Below the pieces are notes generated by a model that worked only from the letters and a program-made list of their open reading frames with translations, did no database searches and had not been told where the DNA came from. Below, one piece after another: positions 884-64,000 of a DNA stretch of 64,000 nucleotides. The position numbers and the translations under genes were made by a program. How positions within the stretch are numbered: position 1 is the first letter of the stretch; every line of letters starts with the position of its first letter. This stretch comes from a virus. Location: the IMG/VR virus record IMGVR_UViG_3300047551_001325, positions 9,535 to 73,534 of that record; one strand, 5' to 3'.

Positions 884-884
884 C

Positions 885-44196: not shown

Positions 44197-44639
44197 TGGA
44201 ACGCGGAGACATATCCGATTACACAATTATTTCCCAAGCCTGTATCTGGGAAGGCGTACTTGCTAATCCACCTGAAGGGCTTACTTCTAAAACTCGTTAT
44301 CGTTTCTACGAGCGTGCCAACAACTGGGATTCAGCCATACCAATGTGGAAACCAAATGACTTGTCCGTCAGATCAATTGCTGACTGCACCAACAGATTGC
44401 ATATTGGTACTGACGTGATCACATTTCTATCTCAAGATGCTGTAGACCCCATCTATAACTGGTTGCTCAGAAAAGGAATTACTACTACCGTGTTGTATTA
44501 CCCCTCAGCTGAGGAGTATGCTCTTGACCTTCGCTACAACCGTGGAATAAAAACCGTCTACGTTGCCAACGATGACGACGCACTAACGATAGGGTTACGA
44601 GCCCATGTCGTACAACCAAACACTGCTTGGAGAATCTGA
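44196..44639 (+). CDS. Hypothetical protein, possibly degenerate HAD-like fold
   Basis: IWEGVLA N-terminal strand; coupled between loader and helicase. Confidence 0.6.
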   Translation: MERGDISDYTIISQACIWEGVLANPPEGLTSKTRYRFYERANNWDSAIPMWKPNDLSVRSIADCTNRLHIGTDVITFLSQDAVDPIYNWLLRKGITTTVLYYPSAEEYALDLRYNRGIKTVYVANDDDALTIGLRAHVVQPNTAWRI

Positions 44640-45892: not shown

Positions 45893-46778
45893 CCTAGCTC
45901 AAGTTCTTGAGTCGGTTGGCGTTGAGATTAAGCGCGTTGGCGACAGAGAGATAACAGGCAAATGCCCTGTGCACATTCGTACTGTTGGACGCCAAGATAA
46001 CTCCCCGTCATGGAGCATGAACGCCACAACAGGTTTGTGGATATGCTTTTCATGTGGTGCTCGCGGGTCGTTATCATCGTTACTCTATGAACTTACTGGT
46101 GATTCTGATTCTCTAGGCATACAGAAGATGCTTGTTGAATCTTCTTTTGAAGCTTTAAAAGCACCAAAAGTTCAACAAGAAGAAGTTTACGTAGACCGCG
46201 ATGCATTCTTTGGTTTTGCAAGAGTGCCAGAAGCACTTTGTGCATCAAGAAACCTTGATCCAGAACTAACCCACAAACACGGCGTACGCTGGAACAAAGA
46301 CCGTAGGGCGTGGGCCATACCGATTATGTCGCCTACCGGAAGACTAGAGGGGTGGCAAGAGAAGAGACTTGGCAGTGTTCTTAATTATCCAAATGGTGTA
46401 AAGAAATCTAAAACACTTTTTGGTATTGAGCGTTTTAAAAGCAAGACAGCCGTCCTTGTAGAATCCCCACTTGACGTAGTTAGGTTTGCAGCCATAGGAA
46501 CTGATGCTCAAGCGTTAGGTACATTTGGTGCTTATGTATCCGATGAACAACTTAGATTAACTTTGTATGTTGCCGACAAAATTGTCGTAGCAATGGACAA
46601 CGATGACGCAGGCGTTGCTTCTAGCAAGAAGATATACAAAGCACTAGGTACCCCACGAGCAGGTCTTTTGTGGTGGAACTATAGTAATTCAAACTGCAAA
46701 GACATAGGTGACATGGAAGACGAGGAAATTAAGGTAGGATTAGATACCGCAACTGTCCTACCACCTTGGATTACCTAA
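45861..46778 (+). CDS. dnaG: DNA primase (CHC2 Zn finger plus TOPRIM)
   Basis: CPVH...CFSCG; LVESPLD; MDNDDAG; KDIGD. Confidence 0.9.
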   Translation: MTTTSTHHSINLAQVLESVGVEIKRVGDREITGKCPVHIRTVGRQDNSPSWSMNATTGLWICFSCGARGSLSSLLYELTGDSDSLGIQKMLVESSFEALKAPKVQQEEVYVDRDAFFGFARVPEALCASRNLDPELTHKHGVRWNKDRRAWAIPIMSPTGRLEGWQEKRLGSVLNYPNGVKKSKTLFGIERFKSKTAVLVESPLDVVRFAAIGTDAQALGTFGAYVSDEQLRLTLYVADKIVVAMDNDDAGVASSKKIYKALGTPRAGLLWWNYSNSNCKDIGDMEDEEIKVGLDTATVLPPWIT

Positions 46779-50075: not shown

Positions 50076-52163
50076 ATGACAAACCTAACGAACGACGTGG
50101 GGGGTCTTATGGCCCCCCACGTGGTGTCTTCAATAGAAGAACTACACGAGATAGTCCAACACATACAAAGTGTTGGAGCTTTTGCTTTTGACGTAGAAAC
50201 ACGTGGCAACGTTGAACGTCACAGTGATGTGCTTGCGTGGATTGAACAAGAGTGGAAGCAACACGAAAGCACTTTAAAAACAACTTCCGAAGAAGTCTTA
50301 GCTAGATCAAAAGAGGCCATCATCTTAAGATGGCAAAACACCTTGGCCCTTGATCCAATGCGAAACGAAGTGTTTTGGATAGGCATAGCAACGGAAGGAA
50401 AATCATGGGCTATCCCAATGGGTCATCCAAATGGGGAAATCCTTGTACCCGAAGAGCGTGGAGATGGAACAACCGTACCTCCCCCTGGGTATCGCAAACT
50501 TTTAGCAAATGGCAAAGAATCTCTAGCAAAAGCTAGGTACTATATACCAGCACAGTACTCAGAAGCCCCAGAGCAACTATCACGCACCGATGTGTTTCAA
50601 GCTCTAGAACCCCTGTTCTTTAGTGATCTGGTTAAGGTGGGGCACAACATCAAGTTCGATGCTAGGTCAATACGTAAGTATTACAATGACTGTCTGCCGC
50701 ACGGGCCGTTTGTAGACACGATGATCATTCAACACATTCTCAACGAGAACTTGCTTGAATACAGTCTTGACAAACTTATTGCCCATAACTTTGGTGGCTT
50801 TAATCCTTACTACATGGATGGAAAAATAGGAGCCATAATTACTCAGGTTCCATTCTCCAAAGCAGTTAGGTATGTGCATCTAGACGTTAAGTGGACTTGG
50901 CATTTGTACAAACTTCTTTGGCAGAAGATTCAAAACAAGGAAGAACTGTTGTCATGTCTACGTCAAGACATGGATGTAATCCGTGTTCTAATGGACATGG
51001 AGGACACAGGCATACCCGTAGACCATAGGTCTATGACAAAACTTGGCAAAGAACTAGACACACATCTAAACGAACTTCTTCTACAAATGATGGATTACGC
51101 ACCACCTGGTTTTAATCCAGATAGTCCAAAGCACAAACAACAGTTACTGTTTAGTGGCAAACGTGAGGGCGGGTTAGGCCTAAAGCCAACTAAATATACT
51201 GAAAAAGGTTCAGCATCAGTTGATGAGGAAGCTTTGCGCAACTTAGAAAACAAACATCCTGTAGTACCATTATTACTTGATTGGGCAGAAACAAAGAAAA
51301 CAAAGTCTACTTATGTAGACGGTCTACTTACTAAACTGCACAAAGGTTCTCTTCATCCATCTTTTCACCTACACAGAACTGCTACTGGAAGACTTTCATC
51401 TAGTAACCCAAACTTGCAAAACATTCCAAGAGACAGCAGCGTACGAGGACTGTTTGTAGCCCATCCTGGTTATGTTCTCCTTGTAGCTGACTATGACCAG
51501 ATTGAATTGCGTGTTATGTGCATGTTCTCTGGAGACAAGAAGATGAGTGAGTTCTTCCTTAACAACGAAGATATTCATGCTGGAGCAGCGGCTTTGATCT
51601 TAGGCAAAGATGTGTCTGAGATTACACCAGAAGAACGTCAGCTTGGTAAAGGTGTCAACTTCTTGACAGCGTATGGTGGTGGTCCACAAAAACTTGCCAG
51701 AACTACCGGAGTAGACGTTGAGCATGCCCGTTCAGTAATTGACCAGTATTACAAACAGTTTTCTGGAATTACAAAATGGAAAAAGAGTGTAATAGAATCG
51801 GGTATCAAGAATGGTTACGTTGAAACTATCTCCGGTAGACGCCGGCGTTTACCCGATCTACGGTCAGACGACAACTCCCTAAAATCTAGGGCAGAGCGCC
51901 AAGCAGTCAACGCTGTAGTTCAAGGGTCTGCCGCTGATATTTGTAAAAAAGCTATGATCGATGTAAACGCTCTTTTGCAAGACACAGGAGCCAAAATCCT
52001 GGTACAGGTGCATGACGAATTGGTGGCCATGGTTCCTGAGGACTTGGTAGACGAGCTACAGCCCAAGTTTATTATGTCCATGGGAGATGGTAATATTATT
52101 AATGGTATTCCATTAAAAGTTTCATGCCACTCAGCCTATAATTGGTCGGAGGCGAAAGGGTAA
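50076..52163 (+). CDS. polA: DNA polymerase family A with 3'-5' exonuclease
   Basis: FDVET, HNIKFD, TGRLSSSNPNLQNIP, ADYDQIELR, K.VNF..AYG, QVHDE. Confidence 0.95.
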   Translation: MTNLTNDVGGLMAPHVVSSIEELHEIVQHIQSVGAFAFDVETRGNVERHSDVLAWIEQEWKQHESTLKTTSEEVLARSKEAIILRWQNTLALDPMRNEVFWIGIATEGKSWAIPMGHPNGEILVPEERGDGTTVPPPGYRKLLANGKESLAKARYYIPAQYSEAPEQLSRTDVFQALEPLFFSDLVKVGHNIKFDARSIRKYYNDCLPHGPFVDTMIIQHILNENLLEYSLDKLIAHNFGGFNPYYMDGKIGAIITQVPFSKAVRYVHLDVKWTWHLYKLLWQKIQNKEELLSCLRQDMDVIRVLMDMEDTGIPVDHRSMTKLGKELDTHLNELLLQMMDYAPPGFNPDSPKHKQQLLFSGKREGGLGLKPTKYTEKGSASVDEEALRNLENKHPVVPLLLDWAETKKTKSTYVDGLLTKLHKGSLHPSFHLHRTATGRLSSSNPNLQNIPRDSSVRGLFVAHPGYVLLVADYDQIELRVMCMFSGDKKMSEFFLNNEDIHAGAAALILGKDVSEITPEERQLGKGVNFLTAYGGGPQKLARTTGVDVEHARSVIDQYYKQFSGITKWKKSVIESGIKNGYVETISGRRRRLPDLRSDDNSLKSRAERQAVNAVVQGSAADICKKAMIDVNALLQDTGAKILVQVHDELVAMVPEDLVDELQPKFIMSMGDGNIINGIPLKVSCHSAYNWSEAKG
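50095..50122 (+). promoter_or_regulatory. Strong 12-bp hairpin at the 5' end of the polymerase gene
   Basis: ACGTGGGGGGTC-ttat-GGCCCCCCACGT. Confidence 0.55.
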
Positions 52164-52621: not shown

Positions 52622-53021
52622 TTGGTGGTCAAAACGTTTAAGTAGCAATCAACCTGCTGCCTCTAGACCTACTACAACATCTATGCCACCAGTGACACCA
52701 CCCATACGCATACCATCAGGGTTGGTTCACTCAAATCCACAACCTTATCAAGACACGACTATCCCCCAACAACACAATCCTAATGAACCCATAACTATGG
52801 GAGAAGCCCTCAGACAACCCCACCTATGGGAAGGTCGTGGAGAAGCTGCTAAAAAACAAGGCAACCTAACTTGCCCAGACTGTGGTAGTGGTAACGTTTT
52901 TGTGCGCACAGCAAAAGGTGGGAATACAACAATCAACGGAAACAGCCCAGCTCCACGATGCTTTGAATGCGGTTGGAATGGGATGTACGACCAAGCCTCC
53001 CAATCTTCTTGGGGAGTATAA
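52611..53021 (+). CDS. Zn-ribbon protein with Pro-rich N-terminus
   Basis: CPDCGSGN...RCFECGW. Confidence 0.7.
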   Translation: MSSDWWSKRLSSNQPAASRPTTTSMPPVTPPIRIPSGLVHSNPQPYQDTTIPQQHNPNEPITMGEALRQPHLWEGRGEAAKKQGNLTCPDCGSGNVFVRTAKGGNTTINGNSPAPRCFECGWNGMYDQASQSSWGV

Positions 53022-53035
53022 CAACAAGGAAAACA

Positions 53036-54055
53036 ATGAAAAGTGAAACTAGCCGTGAGAGCCTTGAATCAATCATCTCTTCTATCAACAAGAAGTACGG
53101 TGAGAATGTAATAGTACAAGGTAACCAAGTAAAAGAAGAAGTACCACGCATTACTACTGGTGTGTTGGCGTTTGATTTAATGCTTGGTGGAGGGTGGCCC
53201 ATGAACCAATGGTCTGAAATCATTGGTGATGAATCATCCGGTAAAACAGCTCTTGCATACAAGACTATTGCAGCAAACCAAGCCGCTGACCCAGAGTGGG
53301 TAGCAATGTGGATTGCTGCTGAAGAGTTTGTTCCAGACTACGCTAAGGCGATTGGTGTTGACCTTGATCGTCTGTGGGTAGTTGAGACCAATGTTATGGA
53401 ACAGGTCTACGATCTAATTCTACGAGCTATGGAAAATAGGGCTGTTGATTGTATAGTTCTTGATTCACTCCCAGCCTTAGTACCTGGTGATGAAGCTGAG
53501 AAGATGATGGATGAGTTCTCCATGGGTCTTGGGGCCAGACTTACTGGTAAGTTCTTCCGCAAGAGCAGCAAGGCTCAGAAGCGTTCATTGATTAATGACG
53601 ACCGTGGGTGTACCGGGTTGATCATCAATCAGTGGCGTGAAAAGATTGGTGTTATGTATGGTGACCCCAGAACCACACCAGGTGGTAAAGCTAAAAACTT
53701 CCACTACTTCGTTAGACTAGAAGTAAAGAGAGATGAATGGTTGAAGTTTAAAGACGAACCAGTTGGTCAAACCATCAAAGCTCGTACAATGAAGAACAAG
53801 ACATACAGACCACAACAGGTTGCTGTTGTTGACTTTTACTTTGCTGATTGCCAATCATTTAAACTTGGTGACTTTGACGTTATCAAAGACATAGTAAACA
53901 TCTGTATTGCAACAGACATAATTACAAGAGCTGGTGCCTACTACAACTACAAAGACCAAAAGTGGCAAGGAAAAGATGCCCTATTGCTTGGTGTTCGTGA
54001 AGATCTAGAGTTACAATCAGAGCTCAAAGAGAAAGCAAAGGAGTATTTCCTATGA
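53036..54055 (+). CDS. recA: RecA-like recombinase
   Basis: GDESSGKT, VLDSL, INQWREKIGVMYGDP.TTPGG. Confidence 0.93.
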   Translation: MKSETSRESLESIISSINKKYGENVIVQGNQVKEEVPRITTGVLAFDLMLGGGWPMNQWSEIIGDESSGKTALAYKTIAANQAADPEWVAMWIAAEEFVPDYAKAIGVDLDRLWVVETNVMEQVYDLILRAMENRAVDCIVLDSLPALVPGDEAEKMMDEFSMGLGARLTGKFFRKSSKAQKRSLINDDRGCTGLIINQWREKIGVMYGDPRTTPGGKAKNFHYFVRLEVKRDEWLKFKDEPVGQTIKARTMKNKTYRPQQVAVVDFYFADCQSFKLGDFDVIKDIVNICIATDIITRAGAYYNYKDQKWQGKDALLLGVREDLELQSELKEKAKEYFL

Positions 54056-54389: not shown

Positions 54390-55259
54390 GTGACAGACAC
54401 TCCTTGGTACGCCAAGACTTACAAAGAATCAATTAAGTCCAAAGGCCGGATACTTCCAGTAATACAAGAACGTCTTATTGCCAGTAACCGCGAAAGAAAC
54501 AAGCACAGAGATACTGACCATCTACACCCATCGGAGCTGTCAAAGAAAGACTGGTGCGCCAGAGCAGCTTGGTATAAAATTAATAAGTATCCAGCCTCAG
54601 ATGAGTCATATAATATGACTAGGTTAAATGTGTTTGAGGAGGGCCATGCAATTCATGCAAAATGGCAAAGATGGATGCACCAAGCTGGTGTACTGGCTGG
54701 TAAGTGGGAATGCACGTCGTGCAATGAAGTATGGTATGGGGTTTCTCCTAGCACTTGCCACCAGTGTGGTTCTACTAATGTCGTTTATAGGGAGGTACCT
54801 GTACGTGACGATGGGTTTCGCATACTCGGTCACGCGGATGGAGAACTGGTTGATGGAGAAGGCAAAGCCCTTATTGAAATAAAGAGCGTTGGCCTAGGTA
54901 CAGTTAGATGGGATCACCCAAACCTTTACAAAGCGTACTCAAGTGGAGAACTTACACTTGATGGTTTATGGAAGAACATAAAAAAACCATTTGCTTCACA
55001 TGTTCGTCAAGGGCATATCTACATGCACTGCACTGGGCACGATAAGATTATCTTTATATACGAGTGGAAGCCAACTCAAGAAGTAAAGGAATTTACAGTT
55101 ACCTTTCAAGAAGAAATTATGCAGCCAATTCTTGACAACTGTAGTAAGGTTATTGCACACTTAGAAAGCAACACAGAACCAGAACATCCGGATTGGGCTA
55201 CAGACAGCAAGGCCAACGGGTGTAAGTACTGCCCATACAAAAAGGTTTGTTGGAAATGA
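54390..55259 (+). CDS. Cas4-like PD-(D/E)XK exonuclease with inserted Zn ribbon
   Basis: HPS..WCAR, G.AIH, GHADG, IEIKS, Q..IYM, CKYCPYKKVC; CTSC/CHQC. Confidence 0.85.
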   Translation: MTDTPWYAKTYKESIKSKGRILPVIQERLIASNRERNKHRDTDHLHPSELSKKDWCARAAWYKINKYPASDESYNMTRLNVFEEGHAIHAKWQRWMHQAGVLAGKWECTSCNEVWYGVSPSTCHQCGSTNVVYREVPVRDDGFRILGHADGELVDGEGKALIEIKSVGLGTVRWDHPNLYKAYSSGELTLDGLWKNIKKPFASHVRQGHIYMHCTGHDKIIFIYEWKPTQEVKEFTVTFQEEIMQPILDNCSKVIAHLESNTEPEHPDWATDSKANGCKYCPYKKVCWK

Positions 55260-55750
55260 GAGTAATACCAAAAGACGATGGAGACCCAGCTCTTACTAAA
55301 TTTAGGAGTAAGTTTTCGTTGCCAACAAGACCGTCGGATAGCCCACCAGAACTACCTGACCACCTGGACGACCTTGACGATAGTTCCCTTATGGATTTGT
55401 ACACTGAGTTTATGTCCTGGGTGTCATACACTAAAGGACAGCTAGTACAGGCTGAGATTGATGAGGACAGAGACGGCAACTTGTGCCGCATCACAGAAGC
55501 CAAGGTGCTCATTGAACAATGGGGTTCAGATGTAAAAGGTGATAGAGTTACGATTGCCAAAGCCCGTAGAGATACAGACCCACGAGTCGTAGCTCAGCAA
55601 GAAAAATACCAAGTGTCTAGAGCTTATAGAAAGCTAGTAGAAGCTGTATTTGAATCATGTGAGAGAGGGGCTCAACTTCTTTCAAGAGAACTTAGTAGGC
55701 GTATAGGTTTAAACAGTAAAGAACAACGTACATCTAGATTTGGAGCATAA
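55256..55750 (+). CDS. Helical phage protein (UvsY-like by position and pattern)
   Basis: Coiled-coil ending LSRELSRR within the recombination block. Confidence 0.5.
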   Translation: MRVIPKDDGDPALTKFRSKFSLPTRPSDSPPELPDHLDDLDDSSLMDLYTEFMSWVSYTKGQLVQAEIDEDRDGNLCRITEAKVLIEQWGSDVKGDRVTIAKARRDTDPRVVAQQEKYQVSRAYRKLVEAVFESCERGAQLLSRELSRRIGLNSKEQRTSRFGA

Positions 55751-55752
55751 CT

Positions 55753-55914
55753 ATGAACACTAACGAATGGGCAGACAAGGCCAACGCTCGACTAGCGTCT
55801 CAGTCCGATGCGTATCGTTCTACCACAGAACCACTTAACCGAATTAACGACACTCTTAAAGAGATCAAAGCCTTGCTGATCGAAATTAGAAATATCTTTA
55901 GAGATGACAAATAG
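55753..55914 (+). CDS. Small coiled-coil protein (53 aa), not in ORF track
   Basis: GGAG SD; MNTNEWADKANARL...EIKALLIEIRNIFRDDK. Confidence 0.65.
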   Translation: MNTNEWADKANARLASQSDAYRSTTEPLNRINDTLKEIKALLIEIRNIFRDDK

Positions 55915-56269
55915 AGCAAAACAAAAAGGAACTTCGTTTGAAACATCTATCAAACGTTATTTAAACAGCAACGGGTTCCTTAAAGCTTCTCGTACAGTGC
56001 TCAAGGGCAGTGAAGACACCGGAGATATCAACGGCATACGCAATAACCTAGCCGAAAGAGAACTTGCCATACAGTGTAAAAACCAACGTAAGTTAAACTT
56101 AAGCGGGTGGTTAGACGCTACTGTTGAACAGGCAGCAAAACTAGGAAAAGCTTTGCCAGCCTTAGTTGTTAAACGGGCTGGTAAAGGGGAAAAAGCACTA
56201 GGTGATACCTACGTTGTGATGCGGTTAGATGACTTTGTTACTCTGCTGAAAGAGGGCGGTTACTCCTAA
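55904..56269 (+). CDS. Holliday junction resolvase (Hjc-like)
   Basis: KQKGTSFE, DTGDI, IQCKN. Confidence 0.8.
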   Translation: MTNRAKQKGTSFETSIKRYLNSNGFLKASRTVLKGSEDTGDINGIRNNLAERELAIQCKNQRKLNLSGWLDATVEQAAKLGKALPALVVKRAGKGEKALGDTYVVMRLDDFVTLLKEGGYS

Positions 56270-56313
56270 AATTATAAGGTTGATAACAACCTTTTAAACA
56301 TACGGAGTAAACT

Positions 56314-56595
56314 ATGTCTCAAGAACCAGTAGATGATATTGTTAAAGTATCAGGTGGGAGTAATCCACAAAGCGTTGGATCGATTGTAGCCAGGTCAGTA
56401 ATTGCCGGCCAATCTCCAAAGATGCGCGCAATAGGTGCTAGTGCAGTCAACCAAGCTGTTAAAGCTTGCGCTATCGCACGAGGTTTTGTAGCACCAAGAG
56501 GTGTTGACCTGTGCTTTATTATCGGGTTTGATGACATCCCTGGTGACAACGGAGAAACCATTTCTGCGATTTCTTTTAAACCAGTTACTCGGTAA
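56314..56595 (+). CDS. spoVS: SpoVS family protein (Alba-like)
   Basis: KVS..SNP.SV.S.., AIGASAVNQAVKA.AIARGFVAP.G.DL...F. Confidence 0.92.
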   Translation: MSQEPVDDIVKVSGGSNPQSVGSIVARSVIAGQSPKMRAIGASAVNQAVKACAIARGFVAPRGVDLCFIIGFDDIPGDNGETISAISFKPVTR

Positions 56596-56660
56596 TAAAC
56601 ACCACTATAAAGTGGTAATATTATAAGTATTACCCCTTGCTACTTTGGAGTTAACTGACG

Positions 56661-59600
56661 ATGGCAAAGAGAAAACCTAAAAAAATTGAAGGTTTAATTT
56701 CTAAATCTTTAGAAGAAGCAAGAGCAGATGATGCAAGAGTAAACGCTAAAAAAGCTGATTCTCCTGCCGATACTTCTAGTACTAAAGACACCTCATCAAG
56801 GCCAACGACGCCCCTACTTACTGGTACTCCAAAAAAACCAGTACCACCTCCACCTTCTGGTGGCCCAAAACAGGTCACAAGTAGCGAGTTAACAGATGAT
56901 GAAAAAGAAATAATTGAACAAACATTGGCGTTAAGCAAAGAAAAAGCTCCAAACGAAGTTCAAAGTCCTTTTGATAGAAGACTAGCAGAGTTACCACCAC
57001 ATGTAGTCCGAGAAATACTGAAAGAAACACCTGGTAGAAACAGGGAAAGAGATCGCAAGAGAAAAGCCGACGAAAGAGGCACTCCTGAAGACAAACGGCG
57101 CACAGGTCACACCAAAGGTGAACAACGCAAAGGTGACATAAAGCGTTCAAAAGTAAAAAAGTCCAGAGAAGAACGGTCCAAGGAAGTTTCAGCTATTGCA
57201 AAGGCAAAAGTTGACAAGTTTGCAACTGAATCTGACGTTGCCGACACGAAATATAAAAAATCCCAAGCTTATGACAGGGAACTTTTAGCACCAGGCGGCT
57301 CAGAATCACCTGATCTGCCTTGGGCAATTCAAGGTGTACCAGAGTTTCTTAGAACCTACACTACTGGCGGACTCCCCGGTATAACATATGATCCAAAGAG
57401 CCCATACAGTGACAAGCACGGATATGTTAGCTCAAGAGATGGTAAAACACCAACAGAAGAAGATCTAATAGCACACCTGATATTCCTAGAGGGTGTACCT
57501 GGGATAGATGACCTAGATACTACTGAGTTAATGAGTGACTCTGGTGCCGTTAGTAAAGCTGAACTTTTACAAGACACCGGAGATGTAAGTATCGGTGGTG
57601 AGCGGGAATATGCACCAGGCTCAATTAATGTAAAAGACCTAACTGTAACAGACGCTGCAGAAAAAGCTGCTTCTAAAGCCAGTGCCAATGAATCTCAATT
57701 AGTAAAAAATACTAGACAAAGCATGGCTGAACAAGCATGGGCAGAATCGCAAGACCCTGTATATGGTGGAGGCCCAACAACATCAGAACAGCTTTTAGAA
57801 AAAGATATTGAGGTTGACCCTGAACTAGCTTCACAAAGATTAACTTTTGACGAATCTGGTAACCCAACTCTTGCTGGTAGAGGTCCTAGACCACAGGCAG
57901 AAACGCGGGAAGAAAGAGCCGCTGCTAGATCAGGATATATGAGACGACTTCTTACTAGAGCAGGATTGTATAGAGATAAATTTAGAGAAATGGAAAGAAG
58001 TGACAATACCTTTGACACTTTTTCCGCCAGAGAACCACAAAGAGATTCATACCCTAAAGGCAAAAGCGGTGATGAGGCATACCAACAAGACCTAGTAATT
58101 TATAACATTTCTTTTGGAAAGAAGTCTCAATTACAAGAGTCTCTAGAAAGAGAACAACGTGACGTACGGTTAAAGGCCGCCAATGAACACTTAGACCAAA
58201 TAGCTAACACTGGGGACGACAGTACAAGAAAACAAACAAAACAATTTATAGAAAATAATAAAATTACAGGAGAAGTTTTACTTTCCCCAGCTATCTATCA
58301 CCAGCGTTTTGGTGAAAGTGGCCTTCGTTTGGAAGGTGAAGAAGAAGGACTAACACACTCCGAATTTAAAGACTTACTGGGGTTTGACTCAGATACTAGT
58401 GAAACTAGTACGGCCTACCCACAGTCTGGTAGACAAACAACTTTAACTGAAGACCCAGCAACTGGTCAAAGAACTTATGATATTACAAGACCTGGTTTAC
58501 TAAAAAGTGTTGTTGAAGACCAACAACGCAAGTTTCCAGGAACCGAAGTTCGCTCACGTCCAAATGACCAACCCGGAGGTCCTGCGTATCTACACCGTGG
58601 TCGTGCTCCAGGAAGCATAGATTATTTATATGGTCATATATTTGATGCCTTAGAGCGTCTACCAAAACAACCAGCTGGTACAGTGCTCCCTTCCATGAAA
58701 AAGGAGGGTGACCCCACAGCTAGAAGGTCAGATAGAGTTGTTGGTAGTGGTCTAACTCGTCAACAATTGCAATATGTTAACGAGTTGCGCAAAAAAGGAA
58801 AGATTGGTATGCAGTCCTCTGAACTCTTCTCTGAAGGAGTACAGGACCCAACACTAAATCCAGAACTATTTAGAATAGACCCTGTTACAAAAGTAGAAAC
58901 CGCAAAAGATGCAGGTGGTAGATGGACACGTGCTGCTGCGCAAAAGGTAAGACAACGTGCCGAAGGTGCAGGTACTTTGGCTCAAAGACGCCTGAAGTGG
59001 GAAACACGCGAAAGTGACGAAACTGAAGAAGTAAAAGTACCAATTTATTCAGATCCTAGCCCAGACCAAAACCCATCAATAATCGGATACCGCACCGATA
59101 CTAGGAAAAAAACATTCCAATCGCCAGTGATGGAGTCTTACCAAGAAGTAGATGAAAAAGGAAACTTAAAATTTGAAAGAAAACAAAAAGTTGATGAAGC
59201 GGGCGCTCCAGTATATGACGAAAACAACAAACCAGTAATGGAAAGAGTACCCGTTATGGGTACACGCCAAGCAACAGAAGTTGTTGGTGTTGATTCGTCT
59301 GGCAGACGACCCGGTGTGTTCTTGCGTAAACCAAGAACCGTACAAGTAGGTGAAGACAAAAAAACTGGAGAACCAATTCTAGAAGATGTTCAAGGCGTAG
59401 AAAGCGAAATTACTGGCTACGGTGCAATAGCCGCAAGAGAGATACAACGACGTCTTGACAAAGGATTGATGTCCCCAGAGTTTAGACGTTCAGTTGGACT
59501 TGTCTCTGATAAAAACGCCCAAAGTCTTGCACGCACTGCAGCAAGAATTGAAGAGCAAGATGCTACGGATGAAGAGTACTTAAGAGCACTTGGTAAATCA

Positions 59601-62522
59601 GCTCAAGCTTTTAATGAACGCAAACCACATATGGCTGCTGCCTTAAAAGATTTAGAGGATGCTAGAAGAGTAAGAGCAGCTGCAGAAGAAAAAACACGAA
59701 AAGACATAGCAGCTGGAACACACACAAAATTTGACGAAGCAGGTAATGAGGTACCAGGCTTGTCTCCTTTAGGAGAAGCCCCATTTAGAGGAGACTTTGA
59801 TAGTAGTCCAGAAGGACTAGCAGAGTACCAAAAAGCAGTTAGAAGTCATACCGCACGCCGTGGGCAAGTAACCCGCGCTATAAAAGATGCTGGTAGACAA
59901 GCGGTAACTCGTCACATTGAAAGAATAAGAAACGAATCAGAACTTGAACTAGATCCTAAAACAGGTGAGTTTGTTTATGAGGAAGTAGAGTTACCAAATG
60001 GAGAAACTCTTAGAAGACCAAAACTTGCAGATATACCTGACGCAGAAAAAGGCACAACTAGAGTTTCAAATGAAATTCGTGCAACCATACTTGAACGTCT
60101 ATTAGGCACACCCCCAGCATCACGTAAACGCACTATGAAAAGAACTGTTTATGGTGGTAAGTACTTTACTGGTGAAGACGCAACAGTTAACGGTCGTTCA
60201 GTATACCCAGCAGGTCTTCAATGGAAAGGTGTGTTAGATCTTCCAAAAGATTTAGAACGAGAAGACATTGGAGATGTGTCTTACACACATGTTCCCTCAG
60301 AAAGAGAAAGAAAAGACTGGGAAAAAACTAAAGACTTCACTGGTAACACCAGTCTAAATGCAGAATCAACGATTAACAGTATCTTGAGTTCTTTACCAAA
60401 ACTTGATGAAAGTGGTCAAGTTGTTTATGCTGATGCTGAAAATCAAATACCAGAAAAAATGTTTGGTGAAGCCCCATCACAAATGCAATCATTAATTGAA
60501 GATCTCGGTATTACTGATAAAGCAGAAAGACTTGCAACCTTAAATGGTGCGGATATAACGGCAGAGGACGTAGCCCTTGCTCGTGCGGTAAAGCAGAGGG
60601 GTTACAAAGCCACTGCTTCTGGTATTTCCCCAAGAACTGAATCCGAATCTATAAGAATTGAAAAAGCACGTGCGGGCACACCAGATGTAGAGGCTGAATC
60701 ACGACTAGCACGGGTTAAAGCTGGAGAAGAACACAGAGTAGTCCAGACTGAGAGAATAAGACAAAAAGAACTTGAAGAACTAAACGCTCCTCGCGATAAA
60801 GTAACCGCTCCTGCAGTATCTGGGTATGCGGCACTTCCGTTCTTACCACAAATAAGACAAGTAATAAAAGGAAGTGATGGAAGCGTACGATACGGAAGAA
60901 CCACTGGTGTTCCTGCAACAGGCAAACAGTTTGAGGGTATTGCCCCACTACAACGTTTTGCTCCCTCACACACTGGAGAAGTGGTCACGGAAAACCCAGA
61001 TAGCCCACTTATAGACCCACTAAACCTTGGGTATCAAGAAGTACTACATCCTGATAGCAGTCGTGCTGAAGAAGGTGGAAAAGCATTGGTTTCTGCCTCC
61101 AATGAATTTGTACCAGAGAAAGAACCAGAGAAAATTGAAGGTGTTCAAGGAGAGCAAACTCCACCCAAAAAGAAAAAAGACAAAGGTATTCAAGGAAGAA
61201 ACATTCCAGCAAGAATGGGTCTTCCAAGCACAAATCCACTATCTATAAGTGGGCTAATGGACGAAAGCGGAATGATACGTTATGCCCGCTCTCCATACAT
61301 GGTAACCAGGGAGAGTAGACAGTCAAGTGACGCAGATAATGATGGTCCACTACCAGATATAGGGACAGTATCTGGTACTGGTGAACACATGCTAACTCAA
61401 TCAGAGTTTAACGACATACGTAAACAACATAAACAACATACCACTGTAGGACGCGCAGATATTGCAGATCTTCTAAAAACTTCAGCAGCACACGGTGACT
61501 TACGGGAAAACGCTGAGTACGACGCAGCAAAAGAAAAACAAGCTGTACATGAAAAGAACATTACTCGCCTAGAAAACATTATGAAAAACAGCACCATAGT
61601 TGACCCAAGAGCAACACCAGGTGTTGGTCCAGGCAAGCATGTAACTATAAATATTAACGGAAAAACACAAACATTTGAGGTTACTGGTTCATCGTCTGCT
61701 AAAGGAACTCACCAACGTCTATCACCTTCTTCACCAATAGGTGCAGCAATTTTAGGGAAGGATGTTGGACATAATTTTGATGTTCAAACTCCAAGCGGTC
61801 GTGTATCCGGTTCTATTAAAGGCATAACACTAGCCGATGAACCATCCGGAGAACCTAGTCTCATAAACGCAGATGATATCAAGACAGGTGGAGCTACCGG
61901 CGGTCCTCAGATAACTAGAGTCACCCCCTCTATAGGAACTGGCGGCTCAGAACCAAACAGACAACCAGTTAGAGGTCCAGTTAGAGGTACTGGTAACTAC
62001 GTTAGATTTGGGAGGCTTGGCAGAGGATTGCCAGAATCTGCTCCTAGTCAATCAACTAGCCAACCAAACCCCAGCACACCTACTCCTGCACCTAGTGAAT
62101 TAGAAGAAACACTGTCAAGCTTGCCCCCAGAATACAGGATGGCTCATGAACTTAGAAGAAACATTGGTTCTGCAGTAGAATCTAACATGCCAATTGCCCC
62201 TGCATTTGGTCGGTTTGCTGGCGCTGAACTTACAAAGCCCAATGTTGTACCCAATGTTGTAACTGACGAGCCAGATTTAAATACAAGACGCACAAACCTA
62301 CGATCAGGTACTGGTCGGTTCTCAGTACAACCAGGTGCTGATATTCCAACTGGTGGGACAATGCGGTTGAATCAACCTGATACAAGTTCAGTATCAGCTC
62401 TCTCGTCAGGGACAGCAACCTTACCACGTGGTTCACGATTTGTGTCATTACCAAGTACATCAAGAAACTTGTCAGGTCAATTTGGCGACACAACTACTAA
62501 AAAAGATGATGAACAATCTTGA
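56661..62522 (+). CDS. Giant (1953 aa) low-complexity protein containing a GreA domain
   Basis: Single ORF; charged P/G-rich sequence; embedded Gre-factor domain. Confidence 0.8.
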   Translation: MAKRKPKKIEGLISKSLEEARADDARVNAKKADSPADTSSTKDTSSRPTTPLLTGTPKKPVPPPPSGGPKQVTSSELTDDEKEIIEQTLALSKEKAPNEVQSPFDRRLAELPPHVVREILKETPGRNRERDRKRKADERGTPEDKRRTGHTKGEQRKGDIKRSKVKKSREERSKEVSAIAKAKVDKFATESDVADTKYKKSQAYDRELLAPGGSESPDLPWAIQGVPEFLRTYTTGGLPGITYDPKSPYSDKHGYVSSRDGKTPTEEDLIAHLIFLEGVPGIDDLDTTELMSDSGAVSKAELLQDTGDVSIGGEREYAPGSINVKDLTVTDAAEKAASKASANESQLVKNTRQSMAEQAWAESQDPVYGGGPTTSEQLLEKDIEVDPELASQRLTFDESGNPTLAGRGPRPQAETREERAAARSGYMRRLLTRAGLYRDKFREMERSDNTFDTFSAREPQRDSYPKGKSGDEAYQQDLVIYNISFGKKSQLQESLEREQRDVRLKAANEHLDQIANTGDDSTRKQTKQFIENNKITGEVLLSPAIYHQRFGESGLRLEGEEEGLTHSEFKDLLGFDSDTSETSTAYPQSGRQTTLTEDPATGQRTYDITRPGLLKSVVEDQQRKFPGTEVRSRPNDQPGGPAYLHRGRAPGSIDYLYGHIFDALERLPKQPAGTVLPSMKKEGDPTARRSDRVVGSGLTRQQLQYVNELRKKGKIGMQSSELFSEGVQDPTLNPELFRIDPVTKVETAKDAGGRWTRAAAQKVRQRAEGAGTLAQRRLKWETRESDETEEVKVPIYSDPSPDQNPSIIGYRTDTRKKTFQSPVMESYQEVDEKGNLKFERKQKVDEAGAPVYDENNKPVMERVPVMGTRQATEVVGVDSSGRRPGVFLRKPRTVQVGEDKKTGEPILEDVQGVESEITGYGAIAAREIQRRLDKGLMSPEFRRSVGLVSDKNAQSLARTAARIEEQDATDEEYLRALGKSAQAFNERKPHMAAALKDLEDARRVRAAAEEKTRKDIAAGTHTKFDEAGNEVPGLSPLGEAPFRGDFDSSPEGLAEYQKAVRSHTARRGQVTRAIKDAGRQAVTRHIERIRNESELELDPKTGEFVYEEVELPNGETLRRPKLADIPDAEKGTTRVSNEIRATILERLLGTPPASRKRTMKRTVYGGKYFTGEDATVNGRSVYPAGLQWKGVLDLPKDLEREDIGDVSYTHVPSERERKDWEKTKDFTGNTSLNAESTINSILSSLPKLDESGQVVYADAENQIPEKMFGEAPSQMQSLIEDLGITDKAERLATLNGADITAEDVALARAVKQRGYKATASGISPRTESESIRIEKARAGTPDVEAESRLARVKAGEEHRVVQTERIRQKELEELNAPRDKVTAPAVSGYAALPFLPQIRQVIKGSDGSVRYGRTTGVPATGKQFEGIAPLQRFAPSHTGEVVTENPDSPLIDPLNLGYQEVLHPDSSRAEEGGKALVSASNEFVPEKEPEKIEGVQGEQTPPKKKKDKGIQGRNIPARMGLPSTNPLSISGLMDESGMIRYARSPYMVTRESRQSSDADNDGPLPDIGTVSGTGEHMLTQSEFNDIRKQHKQHTTVGRADIADLLKTSAAHGDLRENAEYDAAKEKQAVHEKNITRLENIMKNSTIVDPRATPGVGPGKHVTININGKTQTFEVTGSSSAKGTHQRLSPSSPIGAAILGKDVGHNFDVQTPSGRVSGSIKGITLADEPSGEPSLINADDIKTGGATGGPQITRVTPSIGTGGSEPNRQPVRGPVRGTGNYVRFGRLGRGLPESAPSQSTSQPNPSTPTPAPSELEETLSSLPPEYRMAHELRRNIGSAVESNMPIAPAFGRFAGAELTKPNVVPNVVTDEPDLNTRRTNLRSGTGRFSVQPGADIPTGGTMRLNQPDTSSVSALSSGTATLPRGSRFVSLPSTSRNLSGQFGDTTTKKDDEQS
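61389..61832 (+). other. greA: GreA/GreB transcript-cleavage factor domain within the giant ORF
   Basis: MLT..F...GR..I...AAHGDLRENAEYDAAKEKQ..I..LE; C-domain LSPSSPIGAAILGKDVG..V.TPSG. Confidence 0.9.
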
Positions 62523-62569
62523 AATAACAAGTAAAAACCAGTAGCATATATTTAGAGGTAATAAACAAT

Positions 62570-62731
62570 ATGCGTAAGTACAGCAATGATGATTGGCGTA
62601 AACTAGCTAACTCACAGAACATAGACGACATTTTTGATGAAGTGTATGAAGAACAAGAAAAGCTAGAGTACAAACAAAGACGCAAGGAAAAAGAGAGACA
62701 TGGCTGCAAAGAAGACTTCTTCAACTCCTAA
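62570..62731 (+). CDS. Small charged protein (53 aa), not in ORF track
   Basis: GAGGT upstream; MRKYSNDDWRKLANSQNIDDIFDEV... Confidence 0.55.
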   Translation: MRKYSNDDWRKLANSQNIDDIFDEVYEEQEKLEYKQRRKEKERHGCKEDFFNS

Positions 62732-62840
62732 AAAGAAGAAGACTGAAAAGAAACAAGCCCCCAAACCTAAGCCAATATCAAACGTTGGTGGTGGGCAAGG
62801 TGGCATCTTAGGGGCATTTGGAGGAACCCTTGGCCGCTAG
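62700..62840 (+). CDS. Small basic protein (46 aa), not in ORF track
   Basis: MAAKKTSSTPKKKKTEKKQAPKPKPISNVGGGQGGILGAFGGTLGR. Confidence 0.55.
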   Translation: MAAKKTSSTPKKKKTEKKQAPKPKPISNVGGGQGGILGAFGGTLGR

Positions 62841-63333
62841 TCCAAACCAACAGACATTCACCGACTGGGGTGGAGGGTATGATCCTTACGTACCTGAAAG
62901 CCAGCCAATGCTCGGCCCCACGCCATCATTTAGGAACGCCAAAGACGCAAGACTAGCTGCTTGGGGCGGTTCACCAGACACCCAGTACCCAGATGGTTAC
63001 TTGGGAACTATGTCATCTAACCGAAGACAAGACAAAATTGTAAACGCTGTTGCTAGAACAAACACACGCCCATACAGCCGAGGAGTTCACAAAGGTGAAC
63101 GTATTAACGCTGGTGACTACATATGGCCAGAAGAGTTTAATCTACAGACTGGTTTACAATATCAATCTCAAGGTATGAAGTTTGCCCCACCAGGGGCAGC
63201 ACCAGTACAACTAACAAACGACGGTAAAGCAGGGCCCCGAGGGATACCGAGGGGTATTGGAAGGCAACAACAGGAAGTAATTGACATGCAAAGACGCAGC
63301 CTTCTTAAAACCCTAGCACCACCTTGGAAATGA
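62830..63333 (+). CDS. Hypothetical phage protein
   Basis: GGAGG plus TTG at 62830; YPDGYLGT..RGVHKGERI. Confidence 0.7.
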   Translation: MAASPNQQTFTDWGGGYDPYVPESQPMLGPTPSFRNAKDARLAAWGGSPDTQYPDGYLGTMSSNRRQDKIVNAVARTNTRPYSRGVHKGERINAGDYIWPEEFNLQTGLQYQSQGMKFAPPGAAPVQLTNDGKAGPRGIPRGIGRQQQEVIDMQRRSLLKTLAPPWK

Positions 63334-63362
63334 TAAACTGTTAATAACAAAGGAGGCAAATT

Positions 63363-63800
63363 ATGGCCATTAGTTCATTTAATAACGGTGGGGTTGGCGC
63401 TGGACGTGGAGATAACCCACACGGAGTAGCATCTGGTAAACCACGCACTTTTGGTACCACCAACCCTAATGCCCCTGTAGGCGTACATGCCCCTAATGTT
63501 ATGGCATTCTCATCATCTACTCGTAACGCTCCAGCTCCTTCCAAACAAGAGATTGCAGATAATACAGCCCAAGGCAAAATCTCACCAATAAGTAATGGTA
63601 GCCAAGCTGGTTATACTGTTTCTCCAGGAAAAATGGGTGATTTAAGAAGCGCTTACAAAAATATTCGACAAACACGTCCAGACCTAGATAAGGACACTGC
63701 AAGAAGTATGTCGATTTCATCTGTTGGCGGAGGAAACATGACTCAAGACGCCTACGGTAACGCTACTGACGCAAGATACACACAAAAACCAATTATGTAA
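63363..63800 (+). CDS. Hypothetical low-complexity protein
   Basis: AGGAGG SD; TGaTAAACT -10-like element upstream. Confidence 0.7.
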   Translation: MAISSFNNGGVGAGRGDNPHGVASGKPRTFGTTNPNAPVGVHAPNVMAFSSSTRNAPAPSKQEIADNTAQGKISPISNGSQAGYTVSPGKMGDLRSAYKNIRQTRPDLDKDTARSMSISSVGGGNMTQDAYGNATDARYTQKPIM

Positions 63801-63815
63801 TTAAGGAGAAATACC

Positions 63816-64000
63816 ATGACTGCACCACACATAACACTAGTTGAAGCTATGTACAAGATTCATGTAGAAGGGTTAAATCCAGGTCTTACCTTAGAAGACC
63901 AACGCAAAGCACATGAGAATCTTCAAATTCAATACAAAGATGCCATAGCCCAGGCTAGAAAACAAAACCCTCACACCTGGAACGGCGTTAGAGATAACTC
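63816..64000 (+). CDS. Hypothetical protein, 3'-truncated by the window
   Basis: AAGGAG SD; frame open to the window end. Confidence 0.6.
   Translation, partial: MTAPHITLVEAMYKIHVEGLNPGLTLEDQRKAHENLQIQYKDAIAQARKQNPHTWNGVRDN

What the first reader, a model, noticed from the sequence alone, without database searches (positions are those of the whole stretch)
56661..62522. Complete GreA domain embedded in a 1953-aa disordered-looking phage protein
Seen: both GreA domains (61389-61832) with the tip motif HGDLRENAEY intact, in frame within long charged low-complexity sequence. Known: the tip Asp and Glu (E. coli D41/E44) reach the RNA polymerase active site through the secondary channel and stimulate cleavage of backtracked RNA; GreA is normally a free ~160-aa host protein. 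I know no described phage fusion of this kind. Inference: a polyvalent, possibly virion-delivered scaffold that binds host RNAP to rescue or redirect transcription, either tethered or released by proteolysis. This is the best candidate for a new system here.
Basis: partly seen in the sequence, partly recalled or inferred. Interest (0 to 1): 0.8.

Follow-up and report, generated by a model that had tools for sequence, protein, structure and literature searches.

The report
GreA module inside giant phage protein
An uncultured freshwater phage carries a real, inherited 1953-residue, mostly unstructured protein with a complete copy of the bacterial factor GreA built into it, which probably lets the phage grip or restart its host's RNA polymerase.

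Summary
ORF 56661-62522 (+) encodes 1953 aa. Residues 1577-1722 match both GreA Pfam domains above their cut-offs. The catalytic tip (D1613/E1616, aligned to E. coli D41/E44) is unchanged in 7 of 7 orthologues, and the model superposes on GreA (TM 0.84).

The fusion is not a misassembly. Six other full-length orthologues (44-83% identity) keep it, and contigs from two further studies bridge both junctions.

The other ~1800 residues hit no family or fold. They are cysteine-free, hydrophilic and predicted as long helices plus disorder.

The gene sits at a fixed place (replication module, SpoVS-like gene, giant gene) in ~94-kb myoviruses whose nearest isolates are BRock-like Streptomyces phages. 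A sister clade has the same scaffold but no Gre module, so Gre is a lineage-specific insert, not swappable cargo.

The giant gene changes 6-20 times faster in amino acids than its neighbours. It is still under purifying selection.

Best reading: a tethered Gre factor acting on host RNA polymerase. RNAP binding has only weak co-fold support, and cleavage is untested. 'Polyvalent' and 'virion-delivered' are not supported.

The scan noted two similar 'Gre finger in giant actinophage protein' cases on other DNA. My literature searches found no description in print.

The parts
56661..62522 (+). Giant gene, 1953 aa (P0001). No Cys, 6 Trp, very hydrophilic.
   Evidence: Orthologues P0002-P0007 are 44-83% identical over 97-100% of the length.
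56661..57260 (+). N-terminal ~200 residues: highly charged and basic (net +15 over residues 1-200), conserved (60-80%), predicted as short helices with disordered stretches.
57336..60617 (+). Scaffold core (residues 226-1319), shared at 25-27% identity with the Gre-less sister clade (P0008-P0011). No family or fold match.
59508..59939 (+). Most confident scaffold element: a long helical hairpin (helices 950-1018 and 1050-1093; pLDDT mostly 75-91 over residues ~990-1090). Between the helices lies the motif T-R-x5-G-T-H (T1012, R1013, G1019-H1021), invariant in both clades.
60921..61370 (+). Upstream linker (residues 1421-1570): variable (40% identity to the L002 orthologue), with indels, pLDDT <50 (block means mostly 25-35).
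61389..61598 (+). Gre N-terminal coiled-coil 'finger' (residues 1577-1646).
   Evidence: Pfam PF03449, E 1.8e-16; pLDDT 80-90; Foldseek hits to GreA, GreB and Gfh1
61491..61520 (+). Finger tip HGDLRENAEY. D1613 and E1616 correspond to E. coli GreA D41 and E44. G-D-L-x-E-N-x-E is invariant in 7 of 7 orthologues.
61623..61826 (+). Gre C-terminal globular (FKBP-like) docking domain (residues 1655-1722), with the conserved S-x-x-S-P-I-G-x-A-I-x-G-K motif.
   Evidence: Pfam PF01272, E 1.7e-11
61836..62519 (+). C-terminal tail (residues 1726-1953): 37% identity to the L002 orthologue, mostly pLDDT <40, with a few short conserved motifs (e.g. VRGTGNxVRFG, NIGxA, terminal LSxQF).
56314..56595 (+). Upstream neighbour, a 93-aa SpoVS-like protein. 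It is syntenic in both clades and 100% identical in protein to L003 although synonymous sites are saturated.
62818..63333 (+). Downstream neighbour, 171 aa, no family match. It is syntenic in both clades and 97.7% identical to L003.

Best explanation
The gene encodes a clade-specific giant protein of uncultured freshwater ~94-kb myoviruses. The protein is largely non-globular, made of long helices and disordered stretches. In one subclade a complete GreA module was inserted into its variable C-terminal third, between a ~150-residue and a ~230-residue disordered linker.

Proposed mechanism. The protein is made in the infected cell. The phage has no recognisable RNA polymerase or sigma factor, so it must use the host enzyme. 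The globular Gre domain docks on the rim helices of the host beta' subunit. The coiled-coil finger enters the secondary channel. D1613 and E1616 at its tip help the active site cut backtracked RNA, so that arrested polymerases restart. Because the module stays tethered, it also links RNA polymerase physically to whatever the scaffold binds.

Shown here: the domain's presence, fold and tip conservation; that the fusion is real and inherited; the disordered flanks; purifying selection; and the gene's fixed position.

Inferred: binding to host RNAP (weak co-fold support only), cleavage stimulation, the tether role, and the scaffold's partner.
For: - Both Gre domains score above the Pfam cut-offs.
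- NCBIfam ranks GreA models (113 bits) well above GreB (53 bits) and Rnk (26 bits).
- The model of residues 1571-1725 has pLDDT 80-90. It superposes on GreA 9a7t_B (E 1.5e-12, TM 0.84, rmsd 2.4 A), on RNAP-bound Gfh1 and on GreB.
- D1613/E1616 align with E. coli D41/E44.
- Of 35 columns that are >=80% conserved in 119 cellular Gre proteins, 22 are kept in >=6 of 7 phage copies. These include the whole tip and the SP-G/G-K docking motif.
- Gre is better conserved (59% identity to L002) than its flanks (40% and 37%), and pN 0.278 is far below pS 0.747.
- All 6 other full-length relatives keep the module at the same place.
- Independent contigs bridge both junctions with no differences: X5 record 9 (61149-62340) and X9 records 12-13.
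- Short identical contigs occur in two RNA libraries. DNA carry-over is not excluded.
- No PF00940, PF00623 or Sigma70_r2 match in the 73.5-kb record. No PF00623 match in the CheckV-complete sister genome.
- Co-fold of the Gre module with E. coli beta' residues 340-940 gave 'weak support': score 0.50, best of 3 controls 0.00. In the tool's calibration that mark was reached by 58 of 80 solved complexes and 2 of 110 mismatched pairs, but scores of 0.60 or under by only 7 of those 80 and by both mismatches that passed. The three runs agree in at least 70% of their contacts. Partner pLDDT was 76-77. Gre-RNAP complexes are solved, so the pass may come from memory.
Against: - The module scores below every NCBIfam GreA cut-off (113 against 139 bits).
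- The Arg four residues before GDL is present in 100% of the 119 cellular Gre proteins but is Ala in 7 of 7 phage copies. The Lys at 1624 is Leu in 5 of 7. By my recollection, not from a call, these lie in the RNA-contacting basic patch.
- The module's amino-acid divergence (dN 0.347) equals the giant protein's mean (0.348). That is 6-20 times the dN of neighbouring genes that show any change (0.015-0.063); SpoVS shows none. Constraint on the module is therefore relaxed, or it is under diversifying pressure.
- A sister clade does without any Gre module, so the scaffold's core job does not depend on Gre.
- The host is unknown, and the co-fold used a stand-in from E. coli.
- There is no direct evidence of expression timing, RNAP binding or cleavage.
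Confidence: 0.5

Rival explanations
1. Channel occupant rather than cleavage factor. The tethered Gre module binds the secondary channel mainly to exclude host factors (the host's own GreA and other channel binders) or to inhibit or redirect host RNAP, as Gfh1 or the phage and plasmid TraR/Orf73 proteins do.
For: - Loss of the otherwise universal Arg (Ala in 7 of 7 phage copies) and of Lys1624 (Leu in 5 of 7).
- The score is below the GreA equivalog cut-offs.
- The module evolves fast, as expected in a host-phage conflict.
- The model also superposes on RNAP-bound Gfh1 (TM 0.80-0.81).
- Phage lambda Orf73 and other TraR homologues are reported to reprogram host transcription directly (PMC9239242; title and start of abstract seen in the listing only).
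Against: - Both tip carboxylates and the whole G-D-L-x-E-N-A-E tip are invariant in 7 of 7 copies.
- Sequence similarity is much higher to GreA (E 1.9e-13) than to Gfh1 (E 2e-7).
Confidence: 0.2
2. Virion-packaged, ejected protein. The giant unstructured polypeptide is packed in the head and threaded into the cell with the DNA, so a Gre activity or an RNAP tether is present before any phage gene is expressed. This concerns delivery and is compatible with either activity above.
For: - 1953 aa with no Cys, very hydrophilic, mostly extended or disordered. That would suit passage through a tail.
- From my own knowledge, not from a call: large ejected proteins are known (N4 virion RNAP, T4 Alt).
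Against: - The gene lies after the replication and recombination genes and the SpoVS-like gene. It is about 25 kb downstream of the terminase-to-tape-measure block.
- No PHROG structural family matches.
- No proteomic data are available.
Confidence: 0.15
3. Decaying passenger. The Gre module was captured by chance into a tolerant disordered region and has no role of its own.
For: - The module's dN equals that of the rest of the giant protein.
- The sister clade lacks it.
- Several canonical residues are lost: 13 of 35 conserved columns are not kept in >=6 of 7 phage copies.
Against: - It is retained in all 7 orthologues down to 44% overall identity.
- It is more conserved than both flanks.
- The tip is invariant and the fold is predicted confidently.
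Confidence: 0.07
4. Precursor that is cut by a protease to release a free ~160-aa Gre factor.
For: The module is bracketed by long disordered linkers that a protease could reach.
Against: - No protease motif or domain was identified.
- The linker sequences are poorly conserved.
- Nothing tested here bears on it directly.
Confidence: 0.05
5. Assembly chimera or frameshift artefact joining a host greA to a phage ORF.
For: None found.
Against: - Seven full-length versions (44-100% identity) from JGI, ENA and Logan sources carry the same architecture.
- Two contigs of other studies bridge both junctions with 0 differences.
- The closest free-standing Gre is only 36% identical.
Confidence: 0.01

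Closest known systems
GreA/GreB transcript-cleavage factors (Pfam PF03449 + PF01272; E. coli GreA, PDB 1grj)
   Same: - Both domains are present in the same order.
- The predicted fold is the same (TM 0.81-0.84).
- The acidic tip residues and the docking-domain motif are conserved.
   Different: - The module is embedded at residues 1577-1722 of a 1953-aa phage protein.
- It is at most 36% identical to any free Gre found.
- It scores below the NCBIfam GreA cut-offs.
- It lacks the universally conserved Arg before the tip.
Cellular 'long GreA' fusion proteins (NCBIfam NF011309, 906 positions; NF004969, 718 positions, 'transcript cleavage factor/unknown domain fusion protein'). From my own knowledge these are from spirochaetes and chlamydiae.
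   Same: A complete Gre module sits at the C-terminal side of a long extension of unknown function.
   Different: - Only the Gre part matches (profile positions 752-900 and 570-704; 49.6 and 34.3 bits against cut-offs of 714 and 697).
- The phage extension is unrelated and twice as long.
- The phage protein continues for another 230 residues after Gre.
- It is viral.
HelD (RNAP-recycling factor with a Gre-like N-terminal finger; PDB 6wvk_H)
   Same: A secondary-channel finger joined to a large protein. It is a Foldseek hit at E 5e-5.
   Different: No helicase or ATPase domain is detectable in the phage protein. Unlike HelD, the phage protein also has the Gre C-terminal domain.
TPR-GreA/B-C-PIN conflict systems (Kaur, Iyer, Burroughs & Aravind 2021, PMC8195603; passages read)
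   Same: A Gre-derived RNAP-docking domain used inside a large conflict-type protein.
   Different: - Those are cellular defence proteins that carry only the Gre C-terminal domain, together with TPR, PIN and an effector.
- Here the full Gre factor is present.
- No TPR, PIN or effector is found.
- The owner is the phage.
TraR / phage lambda Orf73 (PMC9239242; listing and start of abstract only)
   Same: A factor encoded by a mobile element that acts on host RNAP through the secondary channel.
   Different: Those are ~73-aa DksA-like proteins. They are not Gre homologues and are not fused to a scaffold.
Polyvalent proteins of phages and conjugative elements (Iyer et al. 2017, PMC5512222; searched for terms)
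   Same: A very large phage protein that plausibly acts on host machinery.
   Different: - Those are defined by 2-15 recognisable domains in one polypeptide. Here there is only one.
- The paper's main text has no occurrence of 'GreA' or 'Gre'.
- Its supplementary domain tables could not be seen.

Membership tests
GreA/GreB family | N-terminal antiparallel coiled-coil domain (PF03449) | tested here: met
   60.5 bits against a cut-off of 24.5. Helices 455-484 and 493-517 of the fragment model have pLDDT 80-90.
GreA/GreB family | C-terminal globular domain (PF01272) | tested here: met
   44.4 bits against a cut-off of 26.9. Foldseek TM 0.80-0.84 to GreA, GreB and Gfh1.
GreA/GreB family | Two acidic tip residues (E. 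coli D41, E44) | tested here: met
   D1613 and E1616 align with D41 and E44. They are invariant in 7 of 7 orthologues.
GreA/GreB family | Score above NCBI's curated GreA model cut-offs | tested here: not met
   TIGR01462: 113 bits against 139. The best equivalog, NF001263: 104.7 against 145.
GreA/GreB family | Conserved basic residue four positions before GDL (Arg in 100% of 119 cellular Gre proteins) | tested here: not met
   Ala1609 in 7 of 7 phage copies.
GreA/GreB family | Binds RNAP at the beta' rim helices and secondary channel | tested here: inconclusive
   Co-fold with E. coli beta' residues 340-940: weak support, score 0.50 against a best control of 0.00. This may reflect memory of solved Gre-RNAP complexes, and the host enzyme was not used.
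GreA/GreB family | Stimulates endonucleolytic cleavage of backtracked RNA | not testable with these tools
   Needs a biochemical assay.
Long GreA fusions (NF011309 / NF004969) | Homologous N-terminal extension; whole-protein score above the cut-off | tested here: not met
   Only the Gre portion aligns. Scores are 49.6 against 714 and 34.3 against 697 bits.
Polyvalent proteins (Iyer et al. 2017) | Two or more distinct recognisable functional domains in one polypeptide | tested here: not met
   Pfam, PHROGs, NCBIfam, PDB profile search, Foldseek PDB and BFVD, and the ESM Atlas give nothing apart from Gre.
Polyvalent proteins (Iyer et al. 2017) | Delivered into the recipient cell with the DNA | not testable with these tools
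   No virion proteome is available. The gene lies outside the structural module.
TPR-GreA/B-C-PIN conflict systems | TPR repeats and a PIN nuclease flanking a Gre C-terminal domain | tested here: not met
   No TPR or PIN hit at E<=1 in any of the 11 family members scanned.
HelD-like RNAP recycling factors | SF1 helicase-like ATPase domains after the Gre-like finger | tested here: not met
   No ATPase or helicase family hit.
Cryptic phage RNA polymerase (N4 vRNAP-like or two-barrel type) | Polymerase catalytic domain | tested here: inconclusive
   No PF00940 or PF00623 match in the record; for PF00940 the tool's 14 control genomes gave no match either, so that search shows nothing. 0 Foldseek PDB hits at E<=0.001 for residues 1-1125. 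That model is of low confidence (mean pLDDT 55), so a hidden fold cannot be excluded.

The most novel reading that the evidence does not exclude
Giant, fast-evolving, mostly disordered proteins of freshwater actinobacterial-type phages are flexible tethers. They capture host RNA polymerase through a Gre finger pushed into its secondary channel, and hold it at a phage structure such as the genome, the replisome or a condensate-like factory. This would be a previously undescribed way of hijacking host transcription.

Here the whole Gre factor was recruited. The scan's two other cases (notes e1-5854957 and e1-5893643, unchecked, on other DNA) would then be independent recruitments of the same finger into unrelated giant proteins. 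My by-sequence look-up found no look-alike of this protein in other windows.
Probability: 0.25. Interest if true: 0.85.

Novelty: new variant of a known kind. Interest (0 to 1): 0.62.

Why it matters
Phages are known to control host RNA polymerase with small binders, covalent modification or their own polymerases. A complete transcript-cleavage factor built into a ~2000-residue phage protein is not described in what I could search.

If it binds the host enzyme, it would show that the secondary channel is a phage target in non-proteobacterial hosts. It would also give a handle on a family of giant 'dark' phage proteins, because the Gre module names one binding partner. The natural with/without pair of sister clades would help dissect what tethering adds.

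The fast evolution of the module next to near-frozen neighbour genes suggests a host-phage conflict at the polymerase.

Tried and rejected
- Megablast of the gene against 50,697 phage records: no match.
- tblastn against the same records: 18 records matched. All matches cover only query residues ~1564-1725, at 27-35% identity. None covers the scaffold. Several are evidently bacterial contigs filed as phage.
- PHROGs: 0 families for the whole protein. Only single-member hits turned up across the 11 family members, the best being phrog_48 'tail protein' at E 0.00069 in one member.
- ESM Atlas: no usable hit.
- Foldseek of residues 1-1125: PDB gave 0 hits at E<=0.001. BFVD gave 1 hit at 7e-4 with TM 0.07, which is meaningless.
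- Internal repeats: none better than E 0.003.
- Promoter and terminator scan of 55500-64000: counts as in the shuffles (14 against 11.8 expected, and 14 against 9.9).
- Search for other long Gre fusions (1074-3418 aa): 5 of the 6 orthologues (P0007 was not returned) and no other protein, out of 798 candidates. The search is limited to proteins sharing 5-residue words.
- IMG/VR scan with a Gre profile: 11 other loci. 0 of 11 lie in an ORF longer than 200 aa (154-186 aa from the first start codon). The scan is limited to two exact peptide patterns.
- WhiB as a marker of an actinobacterial host: not found in the record.
- Donor or host inference from the Gre module: the best free hit, P0013, is only 36% identical. 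All but 3 of its 80 best genome relatives carry actinobacterial names, by my reading of the list. The next hits, from other phyla, score almost as well, so no donor can be named.
- dN/dS proper: synonymous sites are saturated in every gene of the pair compared (pS 0.52-0.76). Only pN against pS and relative dN are usable.
- RNA-library contigs (runs X19 and X20) cover only 11 and 6 of 30 bins, and DNA carry-over is not excluded. They do not prove transcription.
- Considered and dropped: a sliding-clamp-binding motif in the terminal LSxQF, which does not fit the consensus as I recall it; and a T4-type capsid-targeting or protease site at the N-terminus, which is untestable here.
Full report
**1. 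Observation**

The window is bases 9535-73534 of a 73,534-bp IMG/VR virus record with CheckV completeness 81%. ORF 56661-62522 (+) is open for 1953 codons and has a GGAG 10 nt before its ATG.

Pfam finds GreA_GreB_N at residues 1577-1646 (60.5 bits, cut-off 24.5) and GreA_GreB C-terminal at residues 1655-1722 (44.4 bits, cut-off 26.9). It finds nothing else at E<=1. phmmer against PDB chains aligns the motif HGDLRENAEY with E. coli GreA residues 39-48, so D1613 corresponds to D41 and E1616 to E44.

An AlphaFold2 model of residues 1126-1953 is confident only for residues ~1571-1725 (pLDDT 80-90). That part superposes on GreA (9a7t_B, E 1.5e-12, TM 0.84, rmsd 2.4 A), on RNAP-bound Gfh1, on GreB and on 1grj.

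**2. The fusion is real and inherited**

A search of 5.8 billion protein clusters returned 8 proteins at E<=0.001 among 7998 scored candidates. Six are full-length relatives (1948-2050 aa; 83, 55, 56, 56, 56 and 44% identity; 97-100% coverage), and all six carry both Gre Pfam domains.

In the 7-sequence alignment G1612, D1613, L1614, R1615, E1616, N1617 and E1619 are invariant.

Near-identical DNA is listed in freshwater and drinking-water metagenomes: 20 of 22 listed rows, from 12 studies, 3 rows being possible sources of this DNA. When laid on 60300-62522, contigs of two runs from other studies bridge both Gre junctions with no differences. These are X5 record 9 (61149-62340), X9 record 12 (60867-61635) and X9 record 13 (61621-62079).

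Two RNA-library runs hold short identical contigs, including 61454-61659 and 61710-61860. DNA carry-over cannot be excluded.

**3. Genome context**

All genes lie on the + strand.
- Structural genes: terminase large subunit 13867-15426, portal 17694-19385, major head protein 20245-21351, tail sheath 25821-27341, tape measure 28914-32036. This is a myovirus.
- Replication and recombination genes: DnaB 44627-45892, primase 45861-46778, SNF2 helicase 46780-48327, family-A DNA polymerase 50076-52163, RecA/UvsX-like 52967-54055, Cas4-type exonuclease 54390-55259.
- Next come the window's counterparts of a PDDEXK nuclease and a 93-aa SpoVS-like protein. The Pfam hits were obtained on the L002 orthologues, which are 93% and 100% identical to the window's genes.
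- Then the giant gene, followed by ORFs of 171 aa and 145 aa with no family match.

No T7-type RNAP, multisubunit RNAP domain, sigma-70 region 2 or WhiB was found in the record. For PF00940 the tool's 14 control genomes gave no match either, so that one search shows nothing.

The major head protein is 61.7% identical to that of Streptomyces phage BRock and 44% to Bacillus phage BCD7. BRock has the SpoVS-like gene (gp51) but no giant gene beside it. GC content is 43%.

**4. The scaffold**

Residues outside the Gre module give nothing in any of these searches:
- PHROGs;
- NCBIfam;
- a PDB profile search, where all 6 hits are Gre or Gfh1;
- the ESM Atlas;
- Pfam and PHROG scans of all 11 family members;
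- Foldseek of the residue 1-1125 model against PDB (0 hits at E<=0.001) and against BFVD (one hit, TM 0.07).

The protein has no Cys and 6 Trp. Charged residues make up 18-52% of each 50-residue block over residues 1-1650 and 12-22% beyond.

The 1-1125 model has mean pLDDT 55 and pTM 0.24. It consists of long helices and hairpins. The best-defined element is a helical hairpin (helices 950-1018 and 1050-1093; pLDDT mostly 75-91 over residues ~990-1090).

The Gre flanks (about residues 1420-1570 and 1728-1953) have pLDDT mostly below 40. They are also the least conserved parts.

**5. A sister clade without Gre**

Two further hits, P0008 (1380 aa) and P0009 (1532 aa), align with residues ~226-1319 at 25-27% identity and have no Gre domain.

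An exhaustive phmmer run with residues 226-1320 over 1.84 billion representatives found only 4 clusters. Two are Gre-bearing and two are Gre-less (P0010, P0011). The family is therefore rare.

P0009 lies on a 93,972-bp IMG/VR record (CheckV 100%) at the same syntenic place: polymerase, RecA, Cas4, SpoVS-like 93 aa, giant gene, then ORFs of 167 and 141 aa. That record and a second one have no PF03449 match anywhere. A profile-profile comparison of 35 cellular Gre proteins with the Gre-less clade gives probability 0.06%.

The giant protein is thus a conserved positional gene of this phage group. Gre is a lineage-specific insertion (or loss) in its variable C-terminal third, not one of several swappable cargoes.

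**6. Evolutionary rate**

I compared the window with the L003 phage. Neighbouring proteins are 75-100% identical, for example RecA 96.7%, polymerase 90.6%, SpoVS-like 100% and the 171-aa ORF 97.7%. The giant protein is only 56-60% identical. Against the sister phage L004, most neighbours are 56-90% identical, though the 145-aa ORF is only 32%. The giant protein matches at 27% over 428 residues.

By the Nei-Gojobori method, synonymous sites are saturated everywhere (pS 0.52-0.76). dN is 0.0-0.063 for the eight neighbours and 0.348 for the giant gene.

Within the giant gene:
- the Gre module has pN 0.278 against pS 0.747 and 59% identity;
- its flanks have 40% and 37% identity;
- the scaffold blocks have 61-71% identity.

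The gene is therefore under purifying selection but is far less constrained than its neighbours. The Gre module is an island of conservation between two fast linkers, yet it still evolves at the giant gene's average rate.

**7. How canonical is the module?**

NCBIfam ranks GreA models first (113 and 104.7 bits), ahead of GreB (53 bits) and Rnk (26 bits). All are below the curated cut-offs.

The closest free-standing Gre among 1612 hits is 36% identical. All but 3 of that protein's 80 best genome relatives carry actinobacterial names, by my reading of the list. Hits from other phyla score nearly as well, so no donor can be named.

Of 35 columns that are >=80% conserved in 119 cellular Gre proteins, 22 are kept in >=6 of 7 phage copies. 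The tip and the S-x-x-S-P-x-G / G-K docking motif are kept 7 of 7. The Arg four residues before GDL, present in 100% of cellular proteins, is Ala in 7 of 7. Lys1624 is Leu in 5 of 7. By my recollection, not from a call, these basic residues contact the RNA 3' end, so the activity may be altered.

**8. Binding test**

A co-fold of the module (42-row alignment) with E. coli beta' residues 340-940 gave 'weak support': score 0.50, best of 3 controls 0.00. The three runs agree in at least 70% of their contacts, and partner pLDDT was 76-77.

In the tool's calibration the mark was reached by 58 of 80 solved complexes and by 2 of 110 mismatched pairs. Scores of 0.60 or under were reached by only 7 of those 80, and by both mismatches that passed.

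Gre-RNAP complexes are solved, so the pass may only reflect likeness. The host enzyme was not used.

**9. Comparison with what is known**

- Cellular long-GreA fusions exist (NF011309, NF004969), but only their Gre part matches.
- HelD has a Gre-like finger on an ATPase (Foldseek E 5e-5).
- The TPR-GreA/B-C-PIN defence systems use only the C-terminal domain (PMC8195603, passages read).
- TraR and lambda Orf73 are small secondary-channel binders encoded by mobile elements (PMC9239242, listing and start of abstract only).
- The polyvalent-protein paper does not mention GreA or Gre in its main text (PMC5512222). Nor does the jumbo-phage survey (PMC7824862). Supplements were closed.
- Full-text searches for a phage Gre fusion gave no relevant paper.
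- A pattern-limited IMG/VR scan found 11 other Gre loci. All are in ORFs of 154-186 aa, and 0 of 11 are giant.
- The scan's own notes list two other 'Gre finger in giant, disordered, fast-evolving actinophage protein' cases on other genomes (e1-5854957, e1-5893643). They are unchecked by me. The by-sequence look-up found no look-alike of this protein, so they are probably different proteins.

**10. Verdict**

This is a real, conserved, phage-encoded giant protein carrying a complete GreA module with an intact tip on disordered tethers.

The most likely role (about 0.5) is a tethered Gre factor that enters the host RNAP secondary channel, restarts backtracked complexes on phage DNA and links the polymerase to the scaffold's unknown partner.

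Rivals:
- channel occupation or inhibition (0.2);
- virion delivery, as the mode of arrival (0.15);
- a functionless passenger (0.07);
- proteolytic release (0.05);
- an assembly artefact (0.01).

I rate it a new variant of a known kind, with interest about 0.6.

Noticed in passing
window 62818-63333 (171-aa ORF) and 56314-56595 (93-aa SpoVS-like): The two small genes that bracket the giant gene are almost frozen. They are 97.7% and 100% identical in protein to the L003 phage, although synonymous sites are saturated (pS 0.67 and 0.69). The giant gene between them is only 56-60% identical. The 171-aa protein has no Pfam, PHROG or NCBIfam match. Its true start may lie downstream of the TTG, since the first Met is at residue 31.
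   Followed up: partly
window 59508-59939 (residues 950-1093): The long helical hairpin is the only confidently modelled scaffold element. The segment between its helices carries a T-R-x5-G-T-H motif (T1012, R1013, G1019-H1021) that is invariant in both the Gre-bearing and the Gre-less clade. Its function is unknown. Long helical hairpins are also what secondary-channel factors use, but nothing tested here links the two.
   Followed up: no
window 62571-62815: The ~300-bp gap between the giant gene and the 171-aa ORF holds two short ORFs. One is a Lys-rich, Gly-rich peptide beginning MAAKKTSS. I read them by eye from the sequence and did not analyse them.
   Followed up: no
window 810-884: A single tRNA-Ile with anticodon TAT.
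   Followed up: no
L009-L019 (IMG/VR contigs): Eleven contigs classed as viral, some of them 190-465 kb long, carry free-standing Gre-like ORFs of 154-186 aa. I did not check whether these are true phage genes or host flanks of prophages.
   Followed up: partly
window 5559-8651 and 10758-12254: Tail-fibre-like and minor-tail-like genes lie upstream of the terminase gene, apart from the main tail block. The genome order may be permuted relative to BRock.
   Followed up: no
phage collection hits H9-H13, H16-H17: Several INPHARED 'phage' records that match the Gre module are Salmonella WGS contigs or short unannotated records. They look like bacterial DNA filed as phage.
   Followed up: no
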